DNA from: an uncultured Chloroflexota bacterium
GTDB taxonomy: Bacteria; Chloroflexota; UBA11872; VXNJ01
Direction of reading: 5' to 3'
NCBI GenBank assembly: GCA_913043205.1
Contig: CAJWLF010000002.1
Span: forward strand, 109,206-173,205
DNA: 64,000 nucleotides
The notes beneath the pieces were generated by a model. That model saw nothing but the letters and a program-made list of their open reading frames with translations. It was not told the origin of the DNA and made no database searches. The position numbers and the translations under genes are program-made. Positions 15,600 to 44,201 of this stretch are shown piece by piece. Numbering within the stretch: the stretch's first letter is position 1; each line of letters opens with the position of its first letter.

Positions 15600-16220
15600 T
15601 CAGAAATCAGATGCTTTCTCCAAAAACTTTACACAATACGCACGATATTGACGAAAATTGGAACCATGCTCACGAGGCTCATGCCGTTCTAATTCCCTTA
15701 ACATCGAATCTTCACCAGATGCGATCAGCTTAGCTTTATATAGTGCATAGGCTGATTCCGGATGCGACTGCCGCAGATAATTAAATATAGATCCTGATGT
15801 CCTTTCAAAACGAGCAGTCGCTTCAGAATCCCGTGTAAAACTTTCAATTTCTCTAAGTGGACGCTTTCGGCCATGCCCCAATCGATGATCTACCTCATCA
15901 AGCATGTGTCCGTACTCACCAAGAATACTACGCAACTTACTAGCAAATTCGCTTAAACTTATTTCTCCCAAATCAGTGCTCGGACTAGACAGTGACTCTT
16001 CAACAGAGTCCCAATCTATATTAATTTGGGGATATAGCTCATGAAACTCATCTTTAAATTGAGCAGTTATTGTTGGATCCGCTCCCAAGTACGCCAGAAA
16101 TCGTGATGAACTCCGTAGTTCGTCTGAATCGCCATCAACAAGCCAGGCCACTCTGATTGTTCGCACCTTCCCACTGGGTAGGGTACGCTCTTCTCCACGC
16201 CACTCTACCTGAACACCCAT
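15600..16220 (-). CDS. hypothetical protein (206 aa, no recognisable family)
   Basis: Intact ORF packed between infC (17-bp gap) and aspS (11-bp gap) on the same strand. It is acidic/charged with no TM segments and I recognise no motifs. Confidence 0.55.
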   Translation of the reverse strand: MGVQVEWRGEERTLPSGKVRTIRVAWLVDGDSDELRSSSRFLAYLGADPTITAQFKDEFHELYPQINIDWDSVEESLSSPSTDLGEISLSEFASKLRSILGEYGHMLDEVDHRLGHGRKRPLREIESFTRDSEATARFERTSGSIFNYLRQSHPESAYALYKAKLIASGEDSMLRELERHEPREHGSNFRQYRAYCVKFLEKASDF

Positions 16221-16966: not shown

Positions 16967-17005
16967 CAAGATGTATATAATCACTGATGTAAAGCATACA
17001 TCTTG
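16967..17005. promoter_or_regulatory. perfect 10-bp inverted repeat (CAAGATGTAT-19 nt-ATACATCTTG) containing a TATAAT -10-like hexamer; candidate operator/promoter in the infC / 17089-gene intergenic region
   Basis: Read directly from the sequence. The arms are at 16967-16976 and 16996-17005, with TATAAT at 16974-16979. Confidence 0.35.
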
Positions 17006-17088
17006 GATACCACTTCAGCTCACCAAATAGGAAGCAGATAGTTCTCCAAGAGAACCAAAGCTAGTTCCCACCTATTGGAAGGCAATCA

Positions 17089-19491
17089 TTGCATATAGCC
17101 CAAGCAAGCATAGCCGATAGCACACCGCGGCTGGAAAGCCCCCGGATATGTTCCATCATTTCGCACCCACTCCAAGATTCCTTAGGGCATTTTCATTTGA
17201 TACTAGAAGGCGGCACCCCACGACTATGCCAGGAATTTATACGTGTCGCATCAACAGCATACTACGCTCCTGAAACAAGGGACCCAATAGCCGGGTTAAT
17301 GAGGGCAATGCGCATGGGGTCTAGTGCTGCAGCCAGCCTCGCAGCAAGAGCCGAAGAACACTTGGACATTGGTGCAACTGGTCTGGTTACCGATGAGGGA
17401 AACTTATATGTAGCTCAACAACATCCGGCTCAGGTTTATATTCATCGAAACGGACCATTACATGCTCTTCCAAGTCTCGACTCTTCTGGAGATAAGTCGT
17501 ATAACGATGGCTTACCATTCGATCAAGACATAGAACTTTCACGAGTATCTCTTGAGCACGGGGACGTCATTGCAACAACATCATCGATCGTTGCGCGCAC
17601 TATCCGCGAACGAGAAATCCGAGGGATATTAACCCGCTACAGTCCTGAAGCTAGTGCATCACAACTAGCTTCACTAGCAGCTCAGCGCGGAGCAGGCGAT
17701 TGTGACGTACTAGTGATACAGTGGCAAGAGAATATTCCTGATTCGACAGAAGCTAGTCAAGAAAAAGATCACACTAATGCCTTGAAACAACTACCAGAAT
17801 TCGACGATTTAGATCCAAAGGATGATCCGGAAGAAAGGTTGACAGATAGCAGGCGGAGCTCAAGAAAACGTAAATCATTCATGCTGGCTTTACGAGATCT
17901 TTTTGTCGGCATACTGATTATGATTCTACTTACACCATTAACCGCGTATTCTTCCATTGCAAAAACTGTTAGGCGAGAAAAGCCGAACATTGGTGAGAAA
18001 GACGATGATGTCAGACACGTAGAAAAATCCGATTATGAACAACGTCGGGAAGCCATATCCGGAGACCCGCTAGATCTGGATGAGTTAAACAGGCAAATAT
18101 TTGATTCATCAGATAGTGAGTCAGATCGTCTGACTCCACGTTCTTGGCCAGGGTTGCCACCTGCCAAACGCGGTCGACTTTCCGGACTTTGGCCATCACC
18201 CGGAATATCAGGAGAGCCTTTGAGTTCAAAAAGCAAAAATCGTACTATAGGACCTGGGTCAGCAATTCTTTTTGCATCACTTGTTATCCTCGGAGTAGTG
18301 CTAGCTGTCTTGTTTGTGCGCAATGAACAGACGATTACACTAAACAGAGATCAGTCCGGCGAGGATGTTTCGTCAACCGCCAAACCAGAAACATCACAAG
18401 GTGACAACACCGTGGCTGCAAGTCAGAGCAAAACAACAACCTCAAGTGAATATCTCTTACGTGCTCAAGATTTCTATAAATCAGCATTAAAGGAAAAGGA
18501 TGATGCACAAGCATTACAAGCCTTACAAGATGCTGCCGATGCTGCCAATCAAGCTGGTCGAGGGGCCCAATCTACAGCGATAAAAGAAGTTAACCAGTTG
18601 CTGGCAGACATTGACAAAGAGCGCGACCGACGGAACAAGGTAGTACGCCTAGCTACGAGTGCTACTATCGGCGACTTTCCTGGCTCCGGAGTAGGAGTGG
18701 TGTCTGGAAAAGCACAACTAGAAGTTTATAACGGCCGACAATATGTGATCGATGCCGTAGTCGGTCAGGTACTTGAATTCACAAATCCTAAGATCGGAAG
18801 CACAGTTATTCGTAAAGGTACAGAAATTGGCCAAGCGGCAGCCGGAGATCCGATCGCCATAGTGGCACGAGAACAAGGGCTACTCGCAATTGATAGTCAG
18901 AAAAATATATTCAGCATTATCGCAGAAAAACCCACAGAACAATTACGGATAGTCGGAACTGAGACCTGGGTTGGCCCTGCGGCTTATGACAATTTCCAAA
19001 ACAACCTTTATGTTCTAGACCCATTCGCGAATAAGATCCACAAATACACACCAAGCACCAATGGATACACAGTTGCCCCCAGTAATTATTTCGATGAAAA
19101 AGTAGATATCGCAATAGCCATAGATTTGGCGATTGACGGTGACGTATATATATTGCTCAATGACAGTGAAATAAAACGTTATCGTGCTGGCAAAGAGATC
19201 GGATTTCGTGTTAATGGTCTTGATCGACCATTCCAAAACATCAGCCAGATTTTCACAAACTCAGATCTCACTAGCTTGTATTTGGTCGATCAAGGCAATC
19301 AGCGCATAGTTGAAATCGACAAACGTTCGAATAGATTGGGTGATTTTGTTCGGCAATTCAAGTTCCGTGGCAGTGGAGAAGAATTCTTCGAAGACATCCG
19401 TGACATTTGGGTTAGCGAATCTGAAGGACGTTTACTAGTATTAGGTAAGAATTCACTAAGACAGTTTGTACTGCCTAAATTAAACGATTGA
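17089..19491 (+). CDS. membrane protein with an N-terminal divergent PP2C/PPM-like phosphatase domain, two TM helices flanking a low-complexity charged linker, and a C-terminal NHL/YVTN-like beta-propeller
   Basis: PPM-like motifs (GATGLVTDEGNLYVAQ...VYIHRNGPLHAL; HGDVIATTSSIV; GDCDVLVIQW) with metal-binding positions partly substituted (LEGGT where DGMGG is expected). TM segments at about aa 262-287 and 390-411. The C-terminus has repeated hydrophobic-D/N...I..Y/F blades (LYVLDPFANKIHKY; LYLVDQGNQRIVEID). Start is a TTG. Confidence 0.6.
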   Translation: MHIAQASIADSTPRLESPRICSIISHPLQDSLGHFHLILEGGTPRLCQEFIRVASTAYYAPETRDPIAGLMRAMRMGSSAAASLAARAEEHLDIGATGLVTDEGNLYVAQQHPAQVYIHRNGPLHALPSLDSSGDKSYNDGLPFDQDIELSRVSLEHGDVIATTSSIVARTIREREIRGILTRYSPEASASQLASLAAQRGAGDCDVLVIQWQENIPDSTEASQEKDHTNALKQLPEFDDLDPKDDPEERLTDSRRSSRKRKSFMLALRDLFVGILIMILLTPLTAYSSIAKTVRREKPNIGEKDDDVRHVEKSDYEQRREAISGDPLDLDELNRQIFDSSDSESDRLTPRSWPGLPPAKRGRLSGLWPSPGISGEPLSSKSKNRTIGPGSAILFASLVILGVVLAVLFVRNEQTITLNRDQSGEDVSSTAKPETSQGDNTVAASQSKTTTSSEYLLRAQDFYKSALKEKDDAQALQALQDAADAANQAGRGAQSTAIKEVNQLLADIDKERDRRNKVVRLATSATIGDFPGSGVGVVSGKAQLEVYNGRQYVIDAVVGQVLEFTNPKIGSTVIRKGTEIGQAAAGDPIAIVAREQGLLAIDSQKNIFSIIAEKPTEQLRIVGTETWVGPAAYDNFQNNLYVLDPFANKIHKYTPSTNGYTVAPSNYFDEKVDIAIAIDLAIDGDVYILLNDSEIKRYRAGKEIGFRVNGLDRPFQNISQIFTNSDLTSLYLVDQGNQRIVEIDKRSNRLGDFVRQFKFRGSGEEFFEDIRDIWVSESEGRLLVLGKNSLRQFVLPKLND

Positions 19492-19520
19492 TATTACTGC
19501 CCCCCATAATCAGCAACCGG

Positions 19521-19591
19521 AGCGGGTAGCGGGAATCGAACCCGCGTTTCGACCTTGGGAAGGTCACGTTCTGCCATTGAACCATACCCGC
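19521..19591 (-). tRNA. tRNA-Gly (anticodon CCC)
   Basis: Manual cloverleaf: acceptor GCGGGTA/TACCCGC, D-stem GTTC/GAAC, anticodon stem GACC/GGTC with loop TTCCCAA (anticodon CCC), T-arm GCGGG-TTCGATT-CCCGC, discriminator U. The CCA is not fully encoded. Confidence 0.85.
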
Positions 19592-19673: not shown

Positions 19674-21131
19674 CTAATATTCGCCATGGCCAGCATTATG
19701 CGAACCATTTATAGCGGTAACAGGATCATTCGATGCATTCTGCCATTCGGCCATACATCTCCTCAATCCGGTAATTTCATTCAAGTAATTCTCATCGCTG
19801 GCTAGATCATGCATTTCAAGCGGATCGTTAATCAGATCGAAAAGCTGATATCGTGTACTGCCCTTAACTCGATACTCGATTAATTTGAATCTTTCGTCTC
19901 GAACCATTCGCTGATAAGGTCCGTCCGATTCCACAAGAAGATCCATCTGATATGCAGAAAATATCGTTTCTCGGTGATCGCTCACTTCCCCATTTAGTAC
20001 TGGCAACAAGCTAATCGAATCACTTTGTGCAGGTATGTCCACCTCAGCGTAGTCCAGTAACGTCGCGTACATATCATGTAAGTAACATAAGGCATCGTGT
20101 CTTTTCCCACTTGGAATCCCTGGACCTCGCAATATCATAGGTACACGCACACTGTGACTATATAAATTCTGCTTCCCTAGCAAGCCATGCTGACCTAGTG
20201 CCAACCCATGATCCGCAACATACACAACGATCGTGTTATCAACTAAGTTTAGGTCCTGTAATGCTTGCATCAATCTGCCTATTTCCGAGTCAAGCTTCGA
20301 AATCATCCCATAGTAGTCAGCAATGTGCTGACGGATATCATCGGCCGTGCGAGGATGAGGTGCTAATTCTTCATCCCGAACATGTAGTTCACCATTATCA
20401 AATGGATGCTGAGGCAGAAAGTTGTCCGGCAGAGGGATTTCGGTATGTGCATACATGGAAGCAAACTCCTCTGGAGGCGTTCTTGGATCATGAGGCTCAG
20501 TAAATGCAATGTACATGCAAAACGGATCGTCGACTGAATGAGAACGCAGCAATCCTATCGCGGTGTCAGTAAAAAGCGTTGATGACCAGCTTTTCCCTCT
20601 CGCAACCTGATCAGGCTCGTAATTTCCAGTTGGCTGGAATTCCCACACAGGCGTAGCCTCATGGCTAAACCCTAATCCTGAACTTTTGGTATTCGGCGTA
20701 GGCTTTGCTTGATCAAATCCCCCACCCAGAAAGATTGAGCCACCATTTGTAAAAGATCTGGCATATTCACTCGGCCTATTATGCCATTTACCAATCCCGT
20801 AAGTAGAATAGCCAGCATCAGCTAGCAATTCCGGAAACAACTTATACCTGCCATCAATTTTGTATCTTGTGTAGTCTCTCCAGTACGGTTCCCTGTCGTC
20901 ATCTGGCGAGGCAAAAACATTGAATAGACCTACCCCTGCCAACAGCATCGCTCGACTAGGTAGGCATACAGCTCGGGATGTAGATCCCATAATGTGCGCA
21001 TTCATCATGGACGTCCCTGCATTTGCTAATTCATCAAGATTCGGAGTCTGAACCACCTTGTCCCCAAACCCGTGAATGGCGTCATGCCGATGATCATCTG
21101 CAATTAAGAAAAGTATGTTAGGCCTGGCCAT
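19674..21131 (-). CDS. sulfatase (formylglycine-dependent arylsulfatase family)
   Basis: N-terminal sulfatase signature with C-x-P-S-R (NILFLIADDHRHD...CLPSRAMLLAG) and a downstream GKWH motif. Confidence 0.9.
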   Translation of the reverse strand: MARPNILFLIADDHRHDAIHGFGDKVVQTPNLDELANAGTSMMNAHIMGSTSRAVCLPSRAMLLAGVGLFNVFASPDDDREPYWRDYTRYKIDGRYKLFPELLADAGYSTYGIGKWHNRPSEYARSFTNGGSIFLGGGFDQAKPTPNTKSSGLGFSHEATPVWEFQPTGNYEPDQVARGKSWSSTLFTDTAIGLLRSHSVDDPFCMYIAFTEPHDPRTPPEEFASMYAHTEIPLPDNFLPQHPFDNGELHVRDEELAPHPRTADDIRQHIADYYGMISKLDSEIGRLMQALQDLNLVDNTIVVYVADHGLALGQHGLLGKQNLYSHSVRVPMILRGPGIPSGKRHDALCYLHDMYATLLDYAEVDIPAQSDSISLLPVLNGEVSDHRETIFSAYQMDLLVESDGPYQRMVRDERFKLIEYRVKGSTRYQLFDLINDPLEMHDLASDENYLNEITGLRRCMAEWQNASNDPVTAINGSHNAGHGEY

Positions 21132-21142
21132 TAATCATCCCT

Positions 21143-21460
21143 TTAGCTAGTTTGCCGTCCTCTGTGCTCCTCCAAGTGGTGTTCAGTATAGAACCCTTCT
21201 TGCGTTCCTCGAAATACGGAAACATACAATTCGTCATCTGGAGACTGAACTGACGATATGAGGTTTTCTTCCAGAGAACACAACAAATCAAGTGTTTGTT
21301 TTTCGTCCAGTTCCCGAAACAACACCACAGTCATATAGGTAGCACCGTTGGATAAATGCACATCTACATGGGAAAGAGATTCTTTCCCTACCCGAATTAG
21401 ATATCCCTCTGACGCCAGAGTTCTATATTGACGCAAAAAACTAAATTCATGGTTATGCAA
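21143..21460 (-). CDS. hypothetical protein (105 aa)
   Basis: Intact ORF between nadC and the sulfatase on the same strand, with 11-bp gaps either side. I recognise no family. Confidence 0.45.
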   Translation of the reverse strand: MHNHEFSFLRQYRTLASEGYLIRVGKESLSHVDVHLSNGATYMTVVLFRELDEKQTLDLLCSLEENLISSVQSPDDELYVSVFRGTQEGFYTEHHLEEHRGRQTS

Positions 21461-26655: not shown

Positions 26656-27162
26656 CTACCCTGCAGTGTTCGACGACCCTTCATCTCTACCAACAAGACT
26701 GGGCAATACAGAACGCAGTGCCTTTTGCTGGACATCATTCACATAAATGACTTCGCTTCGCACTCCTTCCTTTCCAACGAACATAATTTTTCCATTTGCG
26801 AAACGGTAATCGCTGTATCGTTCCCAATGTTTTATACGGTTTCCCCCCAAGGCAAATCCTTCTTTAAAAAAGTGATAGCGCAAAGGCACAAACAATGAAC
26901 CAAGAACAACCACCATCACCAACATCTCTCGCACAGCGTCGGTATTCGTTCTAAACGCTTCCATTCCAGGAATGATTCCAGCGCTGTTGATAGCCAGAAC
27001 TGCTAGTATGTACCATCGCGACACCAGCATCTTTTGGCCAATAGTGAGTGCTGTGTAATGGACAGGAGTTCCTCGTATCTCATCATTAAACGGACTGTGA
27101 ATCCTCAGGACCATCAGACCTAAAATTACAATTACAGCGACTAGAACTAACATAGATACCAT
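26656..27162 (-). CDS. hypothetical membrane protein (2-3 TM helices plus a small cytoplasmic/PH-like domain)
   Basis: Hydrophobic segments (MVSMLVLVAVIVILGLMVL; WYILAVLAINSAGIIPG; MLVMVVVLGSLFV). Its stop abuts the rarA stop (convergent, 0-bp gap). Confidence 0.5.
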   Translation of the reverse strand: MVSMLVLVAVIVILGLMVLRIHSPFNDEIRGTPVHYTALTIGQKMLVSRWYILAVLAINSAGIIPGMEAFRTNTDAVREMLVMVVVLGSLFVPLRYHFFKEGFALGGNRIKHWERYSDYRFANGKIMFVGKEGVRSEVIYVNDVQQKALRSVLPSLVGRDEGSSNTAG

Positions 27163-39555: not shown

Positions 39556-41529
39556 TTGAACTTAATTAATTATTTCAATCACCCGCCAAAGGAATCACGC
39601 CGAAAGCGGAGAAATAGGTCCGAAACATACGTCAGTGGAGCCACGCAAATGATACGGTCACTATTGATGGCTGTGGTTTTATTAATTCCAATGGTGGTAA
39701 GCCTATGGCCTGGATTGACGAAACCGGCAGATGCACTAGTAGCCATGTACGAACCAGATCAAGTCGTAAAATTTGTAGGGTCAGGGAGTGGGCACGGAGT
39801 GGGACTGTCTCAATGGGGAGCTCGAGGCAGAGCGCTTGAAGGGCAAAACGCCCAGCAAATAGTTGGCGCATATTATCAGGGATCCCAATTGATGCCTTAT
39901 GACACTGCTGGAACTCGCATTAGAGTGCTCATCGATGAAGCATACTTACCACCTGCTATAGATGGTTCATTTACGTCTTCCAACAAGCTACCAGGCAATG
40001 TGTACGGGTGGGGTGGGCCCTGGGCAATTGAAGGAGTTACTGGGGCCCTGCAGCCAGGAACGCGTCTCAATCTAGTATCTAACAAAGACCAGAAGTCTCA
40101 TCACGCCTATCTCTATGATCCCGCAGGACAATTGATGATTCAGTTCGGATTCCCAGGCGCACTTAAGCTAGTGTCTCTTAGCCCAGAAACCCGTATTCAG
40201 GTTTACTACAAATACACCCGTATAGTACCCGGTTCAGGAGGTACACAATTCTACGACATGTACCGTGGTGATATCTGGATCAGACAAAACGGCAAAGGGA
40301 CACTAGATACAGTTAACGAACTGGGAATCGACGATTACGTGAGGGGGGTAGTGCCTGCAGAAATGCCTCGCGACTGGCCTATGGAAGCTATAAAAGCTCA
40401 AAGTCTGGCGGCCAGAACCTATGCCCTAACAAGCCTTAACACTTCCAATCCTTGGTGGGATTTAGATGACACTACTTACTATCAACTCTATGAAGGATCT
40501 CATCGAGAACACCACATCACAAATAGCGCGGTGGAACAGACTTGGAATACCGTAATCGGATGGAATGGCCAACCCATACGCGCTTACTACTTCTCCAGTG
40601 GAGGGGGATTCACAGAAAGTGCTGGGGACGTATTCACTCAAGACCTGCCATATCTCAAAGGATTTAGGGATCATAACGCAGCAGGTCTCCCATTCGACCG
40701 AGATGCTCCAGCCGTTAAATGGGAAACCTCTGAGTTCCCTATGAAAGTAATCGAAGACATGCTCAATGAGAAAGATAATTCTCGAGTCGGAAGTCTAAGA
40801 CGAATAGATTTTAGTGATCGATCAGCAAGTGGACGTGTTAGAACCGTATTTATCGAAGGTTCCGAAACCAACCGCAAGCTCGACGCATCCTTTTTCCAGG
40901 CTATTTACAACAAGAGAACCCCCGCATCCCTCGGTGCAATGCTAAGCACAAAATTCGACGTGGAATTTGCATTCCCTCACACCCGCCCTGTCCCGCGGAT
41001 CAACATTCCAGGGCAGTCAATATATTTTGAAGAAACCGGACATAACGTCTTTTTTGGATTCAAGAAATATTTCGAACGAAACGGTGGCGTAGCTGCATTC
41101 GGGTTACCTCTAACAGAAGAATTTGATGAAAATGGAATGCGGGTGCAATACTTTCAGAAGGTACGACTCGAATACCATCCTGAGCTGGCCGGTACTCCAT
41201 ACGAGGTGCAATTAGGTCTAGTTGGAGATCAAATTGCAGCAGGCAGAAATTACGCAAAAGACACTCCTTTCATCAACAACTCTCAACATCGATATTTCGC
41301 AGAGACACAAAACTCTATTCATTTCGGATTCAAGAAATACTTCGAACGATTTGGTGGTATTGACAGGTGGGGATATCCAATATCACAAGAGGTTTTTGAA
41401 GGAGGGACTAATGTCCAATATTTTCAGCGAGGTCGTTTCGAATGGAGACCTGAACTGGGTGGAATGTTTGGCGTGTTCTCAGGCAACGTTGGTGAAGAAT
41501 ATTTACGATTGCGCGGATGGCTCAGCTAG
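39556..41529 (+). CDS. SpoIID/LytB domain protein with an N-terminal signal/anchor and two C-terminal ~60-aa tandem repeats
   Basis: SpoIID/LytB core (IDDYVRGVVPAEMPRDWPMEAIKAQSLAARTYAL; AYYFSSGGGFTE). N-terminal hydrophobic segment. Duplicated C-terminal module (...FGFKKYFER.GG...G.P...EF..G..VQYFQ...E..PEL.G). Confidence 0.85.
   Translation: MNLINYFNHPPKESRRKRRNRSETYVSGATQMIRSLLMAVVLLIPMVVSLWPGLTKPADALVAMYEPDQVVKFVGSGSGHGVGLSQWGARGRALEGQNAQQIVGAYYQGSQLMPYDTAGTRIRVLIDEAYLPPAIDGSFTSSNKLPGNVYGWGGPWAIEGVTGALQPGTRLNLVSNKDQKSHHAYLYDPAGQLMIQFGFPGALKLVSLSPETRIQVYYKYTRIVPGSGGTQFYDMYRGDIWIRQNGKGTLDTVNELGIDDYVRGVVPAEMPRDWPMEAIKAQSLAARTYALTSLNTSNPWWDLDDTTYYQLYEGSHREHHITNSAVEQTWNTVIGWNGQPIRAYYFSSGGGFTESAGDVFTQDLPYLKGFRDHNAAGLPFDRDAPAVKWETSEFPMKVIEDMLNEKDNSRVGSLRRIDFSDRSASGRVRTVFIEGSETNRKLDASFFQAIYNKRTPASLGAMLSTKFDVEFAFPHTRPVPRINIPGQSIYFEETGHNVFFGFKKYFERNGGVAAFGLPLTEEFDENGMRVQYFQKVRLEYHPELAGTPYEVQLGLVGDQIAAGRNYAKDTPFINNSQHRYFAETQNSIHFGFKKYFERFGGIDRWGYPISQEVFEGGTNVQYFQRGRFEWRPELGGMFGVFSGNVGEEYLRLRGWLS
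41017..41463 (+). repeat. intragenic tandem duplication (two ~177-nt units, period 270 nt) encoding the repeated C-terminal module of the SpoIID/LytB protein
   Basis: Units at ~41017-41193 and ~41287-41463. Nucleotide cores GGATTCAAGAAATATTTCGAACGA (41056-41079) and GGATTCAAGAAATACTTCGAACGA (41326-41349) match at 23 of 24 positions. Confidence 0.6.
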
Positions 41530-42773: not shown

Positions 42774-44201
42774 TCAGTCATTGCCAACCATAACTGGAGA
42801 CATAACTGCAGTACTCATACCATGTAATATTTTGCTTGATGCAGGGCACGCAGTTGCTAACACACCAGCCAACTTTGCTTCTCCGTCTTCCACAAAATAG
42901 TACGGGGAATAACGGATGCGAGAATCAAAAACCTTAACCTCGTTTGAATCGAAGTCAAAATATTCGACCGCCAATCGTCTACTTTGTTCATACGGCTGCA
43001 GCACATAGGGAGTTGTACTGAAAGCTTGCAAAGCTTCCTGCAGCGACGAAGCCCATACATCTTGGTTCACATCATGACCAATAGTCACACCACGAGCACC
43101 CCAGGACAATTCTGAAAAACCCGATGGCTTTATAACCATTCGACGCTGCTTCTGAGTGATATTGGATAGATCAGACCACCTTCTTATTGATTTACCCGCT
43201 GTGATTAGCGGAGGAGATATCGCAGCAAACGGAGGCAGCTCAGTTGGATCCAACACCCAAGTACGCGGAATTATGTTTGATAGCACCGAGTGGGATTGAT
43301 CACCAATCTCGTGCACCCAATAATCAGTCAATTCAGGGTGATGAAATAATGCCAAAAGCAATTTCTCTTCCAATTGTGCCTTAGGGGGAGGAGATACGTG
43401 GACACGCCGGTGTCGCATCGCATGAAAAACAAAATCCACATTAGGAATATTCTTTAAGTCATGCAATTCAAAGAATCTATATAGGACATCAATTCTTTGA
43501 ACTTCCCCATTTGTATTCGTGACCAGGTCCCCTAGCTGGTAATCCAAGTCTCGAGGATGAACCAGCCTAGCGCTTACCCCAATTTTCTCCAGCCTGCTCG
43601 ACACAAGCTGCATTTCAGACCTGTATGATTCTGATTCATCAGACACCACGATGGCCACACTAGGAACATCTAATCTACAATCATCAATTAAAGCCCTTCC
43701 AAAAGCCTCTACAACTCCATCGGCAGCACCCAACAGACTGTAGCCCATGGATTTATATCCAGAAGACAGGGCATCTAAAAGCCCTATTCCTCCTGGCACA
43801 GAGTCAAGTTCAGTCGCCACTAAGTTATCCGACTCTGTAAGCATTAAATCAGGTCGAATTACAAATGGTAAGTTGGATTTCGTCCTGTTCAGCCTCCCTA
43901 ATTCCCTAACAGAATCACTCTTTCCACGATCCAGTAATTCAGATATCCAGCCCGGCTGGTGCCCGCGAACACTATCCAAATACAGTCGGTTAGACGCCTT
44001 ATAGAAACGCAAGAGGTGATTTCCCAGAGATCGAAATTTATCAGCGACATCACAAGATATCTCAATTGGCTGAGGAGATACCCGAAACGGGACCTTGGAC
44101 ACTCCTACCCCCATACCAACCTCACCAAAAAGACCGCTTTCTGGCAGTCCTGCGATCATTGCCTCCATACGCTGGGACAACTTAGATACTTCAGATTTCA
44201 A
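42774..44201 (-). CDS. hypothetical protein, possibly ATP-grasp-like (475 aa), co-directional with and immediately upstream of the KamA-family gene
   Basis: No clear family. Weak ATP-grasp-like elements (RMVIKPSGFSELSWGARGVTIG resembles the K-P...G..G phosphate-binding strand; central VAIVVSDESESY...ARLVHPRDL resembles pre-ATP-grasp/GspS-like regions). 85-bp gap to kamA. Confidence 0.45.
   Translation of the reverse strand: MKSEVSKLSQRMEAMIAGLPESGLFGEVGMGVGVSKVPFRVSPQPIEISCDVADKFRSLGNHLLRFYKASNRLYLDSVRGHQPGWISELLDRGKSDSVRELGRLNRTKSNLPFVIRPDLMLTESDNLVATELDSVPGGIGLLDALSSGYKSMGYSLLGAADGVVEAFGRALIDDCRLDVPSVAIVVSDESESYRSEMQLVSSRLEKIGVSARLVHPRDLDYQLGDLVTNTNGEVQRIDVLYRFFELHDLKNIPNVDFVFHAMRHRRVHVSPPPKAQLEEKLLLALFHHPELTDYWVHEIGDQSHSVLSNIIPRTWVLDPTELPPFAAISPPLITAGKSIRRWSDLSNITQKQRRMVIKPSGFSELSWGARGVTIGHDVNQDVWASSLQEALQAFSTTPYVLQPYEQSRRLAVEYFDFDSNEVKVFDSRIRYSPYYFVEDGEAKLAGVLATACPASSKILHGMSTAVMSPVMVGND

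What the first reader, a model, noticed from the sequence alone, without database searches (positions are those of the whole stretch)
17089..19491. 800-aa membrane protein fusing a degenerate PP2C-like domain, a double-TM low-complexity segment and a C-terminal beta-propeller
The N-terminal ~220 aa follow the PPM/PP2C motif order (…NLYVAQ…VYIHRNG.LHAL…HGDVIATTS…GDCDVLVIQW), but the canonical DGMGG and GDSR metal-binding positions read LEGGT and DEGN, which suggests a pseudo-phosphatase or altered metal site. Two TM helices bracket a highly charged K/R/D/E-rich linker. The C-terminal ~280 aa carry repeated NHL/YVTN-like blades (YVLDPFANKIHKY, LYLVDQGNQRIVEID). I know of no characterised protein with this PPM–TM–propeller topology. 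It could be a trans-envelope sensor whose extracytoplasmic propeller binds a ligand and modulates a cytoplasmic PPM-like domain. It stands alone with its own promoter region, which contains the 10-bp palindrome.
Basis: partly seen in the sequence, partly recalled or inferred. Interest (0 to 1): 0.6.

Follow-up and report, generated by a model that had tools for sequence, protein, structure and literature searches.

The report
Membrane-anchored dead PP2C phosphatase with propeller
This gene encodes a real, strongly conserved membrane protein that joins a catalytically dead PP2C-type phosphatase domain inside the cell to a six-bladed propeller probably outside it, and it belongs to a large, unstudied family found across Chloroflexota and candidate-phyla-radiation bacteria.

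Summary
The 800-aa ORF at 17089-19491 (+) is real and is not a fusion artefact. More than 30 independent Chloroflexota genomes carry full-length, syntenic orthologs, and dN/dS against an 86%-identical ortholog is 0.16.

About 70% of family members have one clean TM helix, and positive-inside statistics give N-in/C-out. The window's first hydrophobic segment is short and Pro-containing, with K/R on both flanks, so it probably does not span the membrane.

The family is large (8138 representatives), nearly invisible to Pfam, and uncharacterised.

Best reading: a receptor-like transmembrane pseudophosphatase, an architectural analogue of PknD and PstP. Its function is inferred, not shown.

Two first-reader details are wrong: the GDSR equivalent is HPAQ, not DEGN, and the "palindrome" is a non-conserved inverted repeat.

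The parts
17089..19491 (+). Complete ORF, 800 aa, TTG start, stop included
   Evidence: Full-length orthologs at 33-86% identity occur in more than 30 Chloroflexota genomes. dN/dS is 0.155 against L062.
17077..17082 (+). Shine-Dalgarno-like GGAAGG, 6 nt upstream of the TTG start
   Evidence: Read from the sequence. It is conserved in the ortholog loci L062 and L063.
16976..16981 (+). TATAAT hexamer inside an upstream block that is 100% conserved between orthologs; candidate -10 element (inferred)
   Evidence: alignment and sequence. The consensus promoter scan called nothing on the + strand here, so this is only a candidate.
17089..17724 (+). Residues 1-212: PPM/PP2C-fold pseudophosphatase domain with the flap subdomain largely deleted
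17206..17208 (+). Codon of Glu40, which aligns with the DGMGG Asp (tPphA D34). It is the only metal-ligand position kept acidic across the family.
   Evidence: Glu in 111 of 124 family N-domains. Invariant in alignment A1.
17425..17427 (+). Codon of Pro113, at the position of the GDSR Asp (tPphA D119)
   Evidence: Pro in 63 of 124 family members.
17584..17586 (+). Codon of Ser166, at the position of the SDG Asp (tPphA D193)
   Evidence: The family has P/S/T here, and it is acidic in only 2 of 124.
17725..17898 (+). Residues 213-270: disordered acidic/basic linker ending in RRSSRKRKS
   Evidence: pLDDT below 50. dN/dS 0.6 for residues 216-262.
17899..17961 (+). Residues 271-291: first hydrophobic segment (LFVGILIMILLTPLTAYSSIA), probably membrane-associated or re-entrant rather than spanning (inferred)
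   Evidence: It is 16-21 uncharged residues long in the clade, has a conserved Pro, has K/R on both flanks (6 and 5), and is absent from 105 of 149 family members.
17962..18246 (+). Residues 292-386: charged linker (18 K/R, 18 D/E) with a clade-conserved motif (EYE(Q/R)RREAI...DL..LN(R/K)QI...SWP)
   Evidence: dN/dS 0.215.
18247..18318 (+). Residues 387-410: the family-conserved transmembrane helix, predicted N-in/C-out
   Evidence: Profile matches in single-TM relatives start just before it. dN/dS 0.10.
18319..18438 (+). Residues 411-450: Ser/Thr/Gln-rich low-complexity linker
   Evidence: translation. pLDDT below 50. dN/dS 0.39.
18439..18639 (+). Residues 451-517: three-helix stalk preceding the propeller
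   Evidence: AF2 helices 452-468, 472-492 and 495-516 with pLDDT about 83. dN/dS 0.087.
18640..19488 (+). Residues 518-800: six-bladed NHL-type beta-propeller. Blade motifs: RQYVIDAVVGQVLEF, LLAIDSQKNIF, LYVLDPFANKI, DGDVYILLNDSEI, LYLVDQGNQRIV, IWVSESEGRLL.
16967..17005 (.). 10-nt inverted repeat (CAAGATGTAT ...
   Evidence: Fold z-score -2.3. The right arm has 3 uncompensated differences in L062 and L063.

Best explanation
The gene encodes a receptor-like membrane protein of a large uncharacterised family.

Shown:
(i) It is one genuine gene under purifying selection along its whole structured length.
(ii) Residues 1-212 adopt the PPM/PP2C phosphatase fold and are homologous to active bacterial PP2Cs, but the binuclear metal centre is gone. 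D18 is replaced by R19, D119 by P113, D193 by S166 and D231 by G203, and only D34 persists, as E40. The same holds for the whole family, so the domain is a conserved non-catalytic pseudophosphatase.
(iii) Residues ~518-800 form a six-bladed NHL-type beta-propeller preceded by a three-helix stalk.
(iv) One TM helix (387-410) is conserved throughout the family.

Inferred:
- The PPM-like domain and the charged juxtamembrane linker are cytoplasmic.
- The first hydrophobic segment only dips into or lies on the membrane.
- The Ser/Thr-rich linker, stalk and propeller are extracytoplasmic.

Most likely mechanism (inference by analogy with PknD, PstP and with PP2C pseudoenzymes such as TAB1 and the RssB C-domain): the propeller binds an envelope or external ligand or partner. 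The dead PPM domain then acts as a binding or scaffolding module for a cytoplasmic partner, possibly a phosphoprotein or a Hanks kinase, perhaps through the conserved alpha1/alpha2 'switch' face or dimerisation. It would couple outside to inside without dephosphorylating anything.
For: Real gene: full-length orthologs with the same domain order; conserved synteny aspS, hyp206 and infC on the minus strand, divergent from the gene, with nadC downstream, in all full-length Chloroflexota loci; dN/dS 0.155 overall, 0.10 for the N-domain and 0.06 for the propeller.

Loss of catalysis: the reference tPphA sequence was verified as 100% identical to 2j82_A. None of 124 N-domains has more than 3 of 5 acidic ligands, and only columns 40, 52 and 159 are at least 60% acidic.

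Propeller.

Topology: 105 of 149 members have one clean TM. For the conserved TM, the N-flank has K/R 3.7-3.9 and D/E about 1.0, and the C-flank has K/R 2.4-2.8 and D/E about 2.3. The first hydrophobic segment has K/R about 3 on both flanks. All three Cys are in the N-domain.

Family size and spread: 8138 representatives at E<=1e-3 and 1358 at E<=1e-30. Both domains are present in Anaerolineae, Ktedonobacterales, Dehalococcoidia, Saccharibacteria and Magasanikbacteria.

Comparator knowledge: M. tuberculosis receptor kinases carry extracellular beta-propeller sensors (PMC1847690). The PP2C alpha1/alpha2 switch helices mediate regulation and dimerisation, including in RssB and SiaA (PMC8080068).
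Against: - No experiment or genomic linkage ties the protein to any kinase, phosphoprotein or ligand. No kinase or FHA gene lies among the window ORFs scanned, and neighbours differ between lineages.
- Topology is inferred from crude hydropathy and charge statistics, not from a dedicated predictor or an experiment. AF2 draws the first hydrophobic segment as a continuous 33-residue helix (262-294), and its 21 uncharged residues could span a bilayer. That would place the propeller in the cytoplasm.
- The near-invariant Glu40 at a metal-ligand position is not explained by a purely scaffolding role.
- The full-length model is poor overall (pTM 0.36), and the first propeller blade has pLDDT about 30.
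Confidence: 0.6

Rival explanations
1. Both globular domains are cytoplasmic. The two hydrophobic segments form a genuine helical hairpin that merely anchors a cytoplasmic PPM-like/propeller scaffold to the membrane, with the charged 95-aa loop outside.
Against: - Most relatives have a single TM between the same two domains, which forces them onto opposite sides.
- The conserved TM has an N-in/C-out charge bias in both single-TM and multi-segment members. The first segment has K/R on both flanks, and the loop carries 18 K/R.
- In the closest orthologs the first segment is only 16-17 uncharged residues with two Pro.
- A Ser/Thr-rich linker follows TM2, and the C-terminal 390 residues have no Cys.
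Confidence: 0.15
2. The N-domain is still an enzyme. It would be a phosphatase or other hydrolase using a non-canonical site built around the conserved Glu40, by analogy with PPM-fold enzymes that have altered chemistry such as SidD and Lem3.
Against: - Four of the five acidic ligands are replaced by R, P, S and G, and family-wide by V/N, P and P/S/T.
- No member has more than 3 of 5, and only two other columns (52 and 159) are predominantly acidic.
- The flap subdomain that helps bind substrate and the third metal is largely deleted.
- From established knowledge, SidD and Lem3 retain the metal-binding aspartates.
Confidence: 0.1
3. It is not a signal transducer but a structural envelope protein. 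The propeller would bind the cell wall or S-layer, and the dead PPM domain would tether a cytoplasmic machine such as cell division or elongation, a housekeeping role in monoderm-like Chloroflexota and CPR cells.
For: The family is broad and conserved across two phyla-level groups. It sits among housekeeping genes: infC and aspS here, tsaD immediately downstream in 9 of 28 divergent loci, mreB and DUF4012 near the CPR member, and yggS-proC-yggT near P0010. No dedicated signalling partner is conserved.
Against: No neighbour is universal, and one sub-clade has a PAS histidine kinase and a LuxR regulator downstream. Nothing identifies a wall-binding motif. This rival differs from the best explanation only in the downstream role and cannot be separated from it computationally here.
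Confidence: 0.15
4. The ORF is an assembly or annotation artefact that fuses two separate genes.
For: None beyond the unusual architecture. Several tblastn best segments cover only residues 376-800.
Against: - There is a continuous ORF with no stop.
- The same full-length architecture occurs in more than 30 independent assemblies, including closed long-read chromosomes.
- 148 of 159 top representatives carry both domains.
- All structured regions have dN/dS below 0.3.
Confidence: 0.01

Closest known systems
PstP (Rv0018c), the membrane-anchored PP2C phosphatase of Mycobacterium tuberculosis (PDB 1TXO/2CM1)
   Different: PstP keeps all metal-binding aspartates and is an active phosphatase (PMC1847690 uses it as such). 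Its extracellular part is not a beta-propeller (my own knowledge). The window protein lacks 4 of 5 ligands and has an NHL-type propeller.
PknD (Rv0931c), a receptor Ser/Thr kinase with an extracellular NHL beta-propeller sensor (PDB 1RWI/1RWL)
   Same: Same overall logic: a cytoplasmic Ser/Thr-signalling-type domain, a TM helix, and an extracytoplasmic six-bladed NHL propeller. The C-terminal profile hits the PknD sensor (E=9.5e-4). PMC1847690 describes the extracellular beta-propeller sensor of M. tuberculosis receptor kinases.
   Different: The cytoplasmic domain here is a dead PP2C fold, not a Hanks kinase. The propeller similarity is weak and is at repeat-family level only.
PP2C-fold pseudophosphatases: eukaryotic TAB1 (PDB 2J4O) and the C-terminal domain of the adaptor RssB (PDB 3ES2/3EQ2)
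   Different: They are soluble cytoplasmic proteins with no TM or propeller. There is no close sequence relationship. Their partners (TAK1/p38; RpoS and anti-adaptors) have no known counterpart here.
SpoIIE and RsbU-type regulated bacterial PP2Cs
   Different: Those are active, metal-dependent enzymes with the PP2C domain at the C-terminus after 10 TM helices (SpoIIE) or after a soluble regulatory domain (PMC8080068). Here the domain order is reversed and catalysis is lost.

Membership tests
PPM/PP2C superfamily (fold and homology level) | Alpha-beta-beta-alpha sandwich of two antiparallel sheets flanked by helix pairs | tested here: met
PPM/PP2C superfamily (fold and homology level) | Statistically significant sequence homology to known PP2Cs | tested here: met
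   The family profile A3 hits tPphA at E=4.8e-15, PstP at 2e-11 and Stp1 at 6e-11. It also hits an Stp1/IreP protein at E=1e-8.
PPM/PP2C superfamily (fold and homology level) | The window protein itself passes a curated PP2C model (PF00481, PF13672 or PF07228) | tested here: not met
   No PP2C family was returned at E<=10 for the window protein. Only 2 of 24 diverse relatives reach SpoIIE.
Active PPM phosphatases (PstP/Stp1/tPphA type) | Conserved metal-binding aspartates (tPphA D18, D34, D193, D231, plus D119 for the third metal) | tested here: not met
   The equivalents are R19, E40, S166, G203 (with D204 adjacent) and P113. Family-wide the maximum is 3 of 5 acidic.
Active PPM phosphatases (PstP/Stp1/tPphA type) | Metal-dependent phosphoserine/threonine hydrolysis | not testable with these tools
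   This needs an enzyme assay on the purified domain.
NHL-repeat six-bladed beta-propellers (PknD-sensor type) | Six four-stranded blades carrying the recurring hydrophobic-D-x-x-N-x-(I/V) motif | tested here: met
NHL-repeat six-bladed beta-propellers (PknD-sensor type) | Passes a curated NHL or related propeller Pfam model | tested here: not met
   Only sub-threshold DUF5128 (15.7 bits against a cut-off of 22.9) for the window protein, and a weak SdiA-regulated match (E=0.0028) in one relative.
Bacterial receptor-type Ser/Thr signalling proteins (PknD, PknB, PstP architecture) | Cytoplasmic N-terminal domain, one membrane crossing, extracytoplasmic C-terminal sensor | tested here: inconclusive
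   Family statistics favour N-in/C-out with one true crossing. However, the window protein has a second hydrophobic segment, and no dedicated predictor or experiment was available.
Bacterial receptor-type Ser/Thr signalling proteins (PknD, PknB, PstP architecture) | Catalytically competent kinase or phosphatase output domain | tested here: not met
   There is no kinase domain, and the PPM domain lacks its metal ligands.
PP2C-fold pseudophosphatases (TAB1, RssB C-domain) | PPM fold retained, catalytic metal site lost, domain maintained by selection | tested here: met
   dN/dS of the domain is 0.10.
PP2C-fold pseudophosphatases (TAB1, RssB C-domain) | Acts by binding a defined partner protein | not testable with these tools
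   No conserved partner emerges from gene context.

The most novel reading that the evidence does not exclude
This is the founding example of a phylum-spanning class of bacterial transmembrane receptor pseudophosphatases. In this reading, an extracytoplasmic NHL propeller senses an envelope or environmental ligand. The signal is passed across a single TM helix to a catalytically dead PPM domain, which signals by conformational or dimerisation switching of its alpha1/alpha2 element, or by sequestering a phosphoprotein. It would be a core, probably single-copy, component shared by Chloroflexota and Patescibacteria and absent from model organisms.
Probability: 0.3. Interest if true: 0.7.

Novelty: new variant of a known kind. 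Interest (0 to 1): 0.5.

Why it matters
Bacterial Ser/Thr signalling is understood mainly from active Hanks kinases and PP2C phosphatases in Actinobacteria and Firmicutes. Bacterial pseudo-enzymes in this system are barely explored.

This family has thousands of members and is conserved under strong purifying selection. It is essentially invisible to Pfam and NCBIfam. Its members combine a dead PP2C domain with a receptor-like architecture, and they occur in two of the least experimentally accessible bacterial groups, Chloroflexota and CPR/Patescibacteria.

If the proposed mechanism holds, it would add a non-catalytic receptor type to bacterial signalling and give a shared molecular character linking Chloroflexota and CPR envelopes. 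Even if it does not hold, the domain assignment lets thousands of 'hypothetical proteins' be annotated.

Tried and rejected
- Single-sequence Pfam, NCBIfam and PDB scans of the 800-aa protein gave nothing useful: only sub-threshold DUF5128, New_glue and a chloride-channel hit at E=0.39.
- Fold search against afdb50 was not available. No UniProt-annotated structural neighbours could be listed, and one fold search slot was left unused.
- The second homologous-protein run, with the N-domain profile, returned only one protein, a real Stp1/IreP PP2C. It did not give the taxonomy I wanted.
- Two cluster-member look-ups yielded very few names: Chloroflexota, Dehalococcoidia and Magasanikbacteria, almost all 'hypothetical protein'.
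- Gene-context mining for a conserved partner found no universal neighbour: tsaD downstream in 9 of 28 divergent loci, PAS-HK plus LuxR in 8, infC divergent in the window clade. tsaD is not in the window.
- I scanned 20 other window ORFs for kinase or FHA partners and found none.
- The upstream 'palindrome' was rejected as a feature. It is not a perfect palindrome, is marginal in folding (z=-2.3), is not conserved in orthologs, and has no Rfam match.
- Three literature searches found no paper on the family.
- I rejected filing it as a PstP ortholog, because the catalytic residues are not met and the extracellular domain is different.
- I rejected the fusion-artefact idea on the evidence.
Full report
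OBSERVATION.
All quoted peptides are in the translation. The start is credible. Orthologs begin at the same position (MEVAQASL...), and GGAAGG lies 6 nt upstream at 17077-17082. One 86%-identical ortholog was called 37 codons too long by its source. infC is divergent 320 bp upstream. A tRNA-Gly(CCC) on the minus strand (19519-19591) lies 28 nt past the stop, followed by a convergent sulfatase gene. The gene is therefore geometrically monocistronic.

REAL GENE, NOT A FUSION.
A word-indexed search found 11 relatives, nine of them full-length at 45-86% identity. The alignment is collinear over all regions. A scan of species-representative genomes returned 58 loci. More than 30 Chloroflexota MAGs, including closed long-read chromosomes, have a single full-length match. 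In all of these the neighbourhood is conserved: aspS, a 206-aa unknown and infC on the minus strand, divergent from the gene, with nadC downstream.

Against the 86%-identical ortholog (L062), dN/dS by region is as follows:

| Region | dN/dS |
|---|---|
| Whole protein | 0.155 |
| N-domain | 0.10 |
| First hydrophobic segment | 0.30 |
| Charged linker | 0.215 |
| Conserved TM | 0.10 |
| Helical stalk | 0.087 |
| Propeller | 0.06 |
| Two low-complexity linkers | 0.39-0.60 |

Every structured part is under purifying selection.

THE N-TERMINAL DOMAIN.
Single-sequence scans see no PP2C family at any threshold. That negative result reflects limited sensitivity:
- An exhaustive profile search showed the family is large: 8138 representatives at E<=1e-3 and 1358 at E<=1e-30. 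148 of the 159 best carry both the N- and C-domains.
- A profile of 24 mutually distant N-domains (A3) hits genuine bacterial PP2Cs in the PDB: tPphA 4.8e-15, PstP 2e-11, Stp1 6e-11, PppA 1e-8, MspP 2e-8.

The domain is therefore a true PPM homolog.

CATALYTIC SITE.
I verified that my recalled tPphA sequence is identical to 2j82_A and added it to a 124-member N-domain alignment. The metal-ligand roles of the tPphA residues are from my own knowledge.

| tPphA residue | Window residue | Family-wide |
|---|---|---|
| D18 | R19 | V/N/R |
| D34 (DGMGG) | E40 | Glu in 111/124 |
| G35 | G41 | kept only in the window's clade |
| D119 (GDSR) | P113 | Pro in 63/124 |
| D193 (SDG) | S166 | P/S/T |
| D231 | G203, with D204 adjacent | not conserved |

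No member has more than three acidic residues at the five positions. Only columns 40, 52 and 159 are at least 60% acidic. The flap subdomain is largely deleted. The binuclear centre cannot form, yet the domain is strongly constrained, so it is a maintained pseudophosphatase. The 'DEGN' = GDSR assignment is about 10 residues off, and the true equivalent is H112-P113-A114-Q115. What the invariant Glu40 does is unexplained.

THE C-TERMINAL HALF.

TOPOLOGY.
Family evidence addresses this:
- With a strict definition (uncharged hydrophobic stretch of at least 15 residues), 105 of 149 two-domain members have a single TM between the domains. It is the one aligned with window residues 387-410.
- That TM has K/R 3.7-3.9 and D/E about 1.0 on its N-flank, against 2.4-2.8 and about 2.3 on its C-flank. 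This holds both in single-TM members and in members with extra segments.
- The extra first segment has K/R about 3 on both flanks. In the window's clade it is only 16-21 uncharged residues with conserved proline(s). In the window protein it is flanked by 6 and 5 K/R.
- A Ser/Thr-rich linker follows TM2, and all three cysteines lie in the N-domain.

I therefore infer that the PPM-like domain and charged linker are inside, that there is one true crossing, and that the stalk and propeller are outside. This is inference. AF2 draws 262-294 as a single long helix, and no dedicated predictor was available.

CONTEXT AND FUNCTION.
No partner emerges. The window around the gene is housekeeping: uvrC, two ABC exporters, aspS, infC, sulfatase, nadCB, HtrA and MgsA nearby, and further off Der, UvrB, Icd and a SpoIID-domain protein. 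No kinase or FHA protein is present among the ORFs scanned. In divergent lineages the neighbours change:
- tsaD follows on the same strand with gaps of -4 to 81 nt in 9 of 28 loci.
- Another sub-clade has a PAS histidine kinase plus a LuxR regulator downstream.
- The CPR member sits near a TsaD-family gene, DUF4012 and mreB.

The mechanism therefore rests on anatomy and analogy. M. tuberculosis receptor kinases use extracellular sensor domains including the PknD beta-propeller (PMC1847690). PP2C domains are regulated and dimerise through their alpha1/alpha2 switch helices, including in RssB and SiaA (PMC8080068). From my own knowledge, TAB1 and the RssB C-domain show that dead PP2C folds serve as binding modules. 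The most likely reading is a receptor-like pseudophosphatase in which the propeller binds something in the envelope and the dead PPM domain binds or organises a cytoplasmic partner.

DISTRIBUTION AND NOVELTY.
Both domains occur together in the window's own Chloroflexota clade, Dehalococcoidia, Anaerolineae, Ktedonobacterales, Ca. Aquidulcis, Saccharibacteria, other Patescibacteria and Magasanikbacteria. Two short contigs binned as Gammaproteobacteria and Acidobacteriota also carry it and may be mis-binned. NCBI calls members 'hypothetical protein'. UniRef auto-labels one 'PPM-type phosphatase domain-containing protein'. Three full-text searches found no study of the family. It is a new variant of a known kind: a bacterial receptor-type Ser/Thr-signalling architecture with a pseudo-enzyme as its cytoplasmic module.

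SIDE ISSUES.
The 'palindrome' is a 10-nt inverted repeat with a 19-nt spacer. It folds only marginally better than shuffles (z=-2.3). It has three uncompensated changes in the orthologs and no Rfam match. What is conserved upstream is a 100%-identical block containing TATAAT at 16976-16981, which is a candidate -10 element, although the consensus scan called no + strand promoter there.

VERDICT.
Interest is moderate (0.5). This is a large, conserved, unannotated family with an unusual non-catalytic design, but it is built from familiar parts and has no functional evidence yet.

Noticed in passing
window 19519-19591 (-): tRNA-Gly (anticodon CCC) lies only 28 nt downstream of the target's stop codon, on the opposite strand.
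   Followed up: yes
window 15600-16220 (-): A 206-aa ORF between aspS and infC has no Pfam hit. It is conserved at 39-49% identity in the same position in every full-length Chloroflexota locus, so it is an unknown conserved partner of the aspS-infC block.
   Followed up: partly
window 19674-21131 (-): The sulfatase gene (PF00884) between the target and nadC has no counterpart in any of the syntenic loci. It looks like a lineage-specific insertion into an otherwise conserved block.
   Followed up: partly
window 21143-21460 (-): A 105-aa ORF just upstream of nadC has no Pfam hit. It is conserved at 36-43% identity in the same position in several related loci (L003-L006, L008, L015, L016, L033).
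   Followed up: partly
L037, L038, L039, L043, L044, L051, L058, L060, L061 (immediately downstream of the family gene): tsaD (t6A synthesis, PF00814) follows the family gene on the same strand with gaps of -4 to 81 nt in 9 of 28 divergent loci. The CPR locus L059 has a TsaD-family fragment divergently upstream. holB is nearby in both L059 and L060. The meaning is unknown, and tsaD is absent from this window.
   Followed up: partly
L040, L041, L046, L048, L049, L050, L053 (downstream of the family gene): In one Anaerolineales sub-clade the family gene is followed by a PAS histidine kinase, and in four of these loci (L040, L041, L046, L050) then by a LuxR-type response regulator. A Metallophos phosphoesterase homolog lies upstream in five of these loci (L040, L041, L046, L048, L053) and in L034. 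This could hint at a signalling link but is restricted to that sub-clade.
   Followed up: partly
L057 (6.6-kb contig, 'Gammaproteobacteria' MAG) and L047 (3.1-kb contig, 'Acidobacteriota' MAG): Full two-domain family members sit on short contigs binned to non-Chloroflexota, non-CPR MAGs. This is either mis-binning or a wider distribution than I could establish.
   Followed up: no
window 42774-44201 (-) and 26656-27162 (-): ORFs of 475 aa and 168 aa with no Pfam family at E<=1e-5 and E<=1e-3 respectively.
   Followed up: no
window 39556-41529 (+): A 657-aa protein whose only Pfam hit is a SpoIID domain (residues 248-334). It is unusually long for a SpoIID-type lytic transglycosylase.
   Followed up: no
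L062 2863-5376 (protein P0001): The 86%-identical ortholog was called 37 codons too long by its source (837 aa). The conserved start and SD match the window's TTG at 17089.
   Followed up: yes
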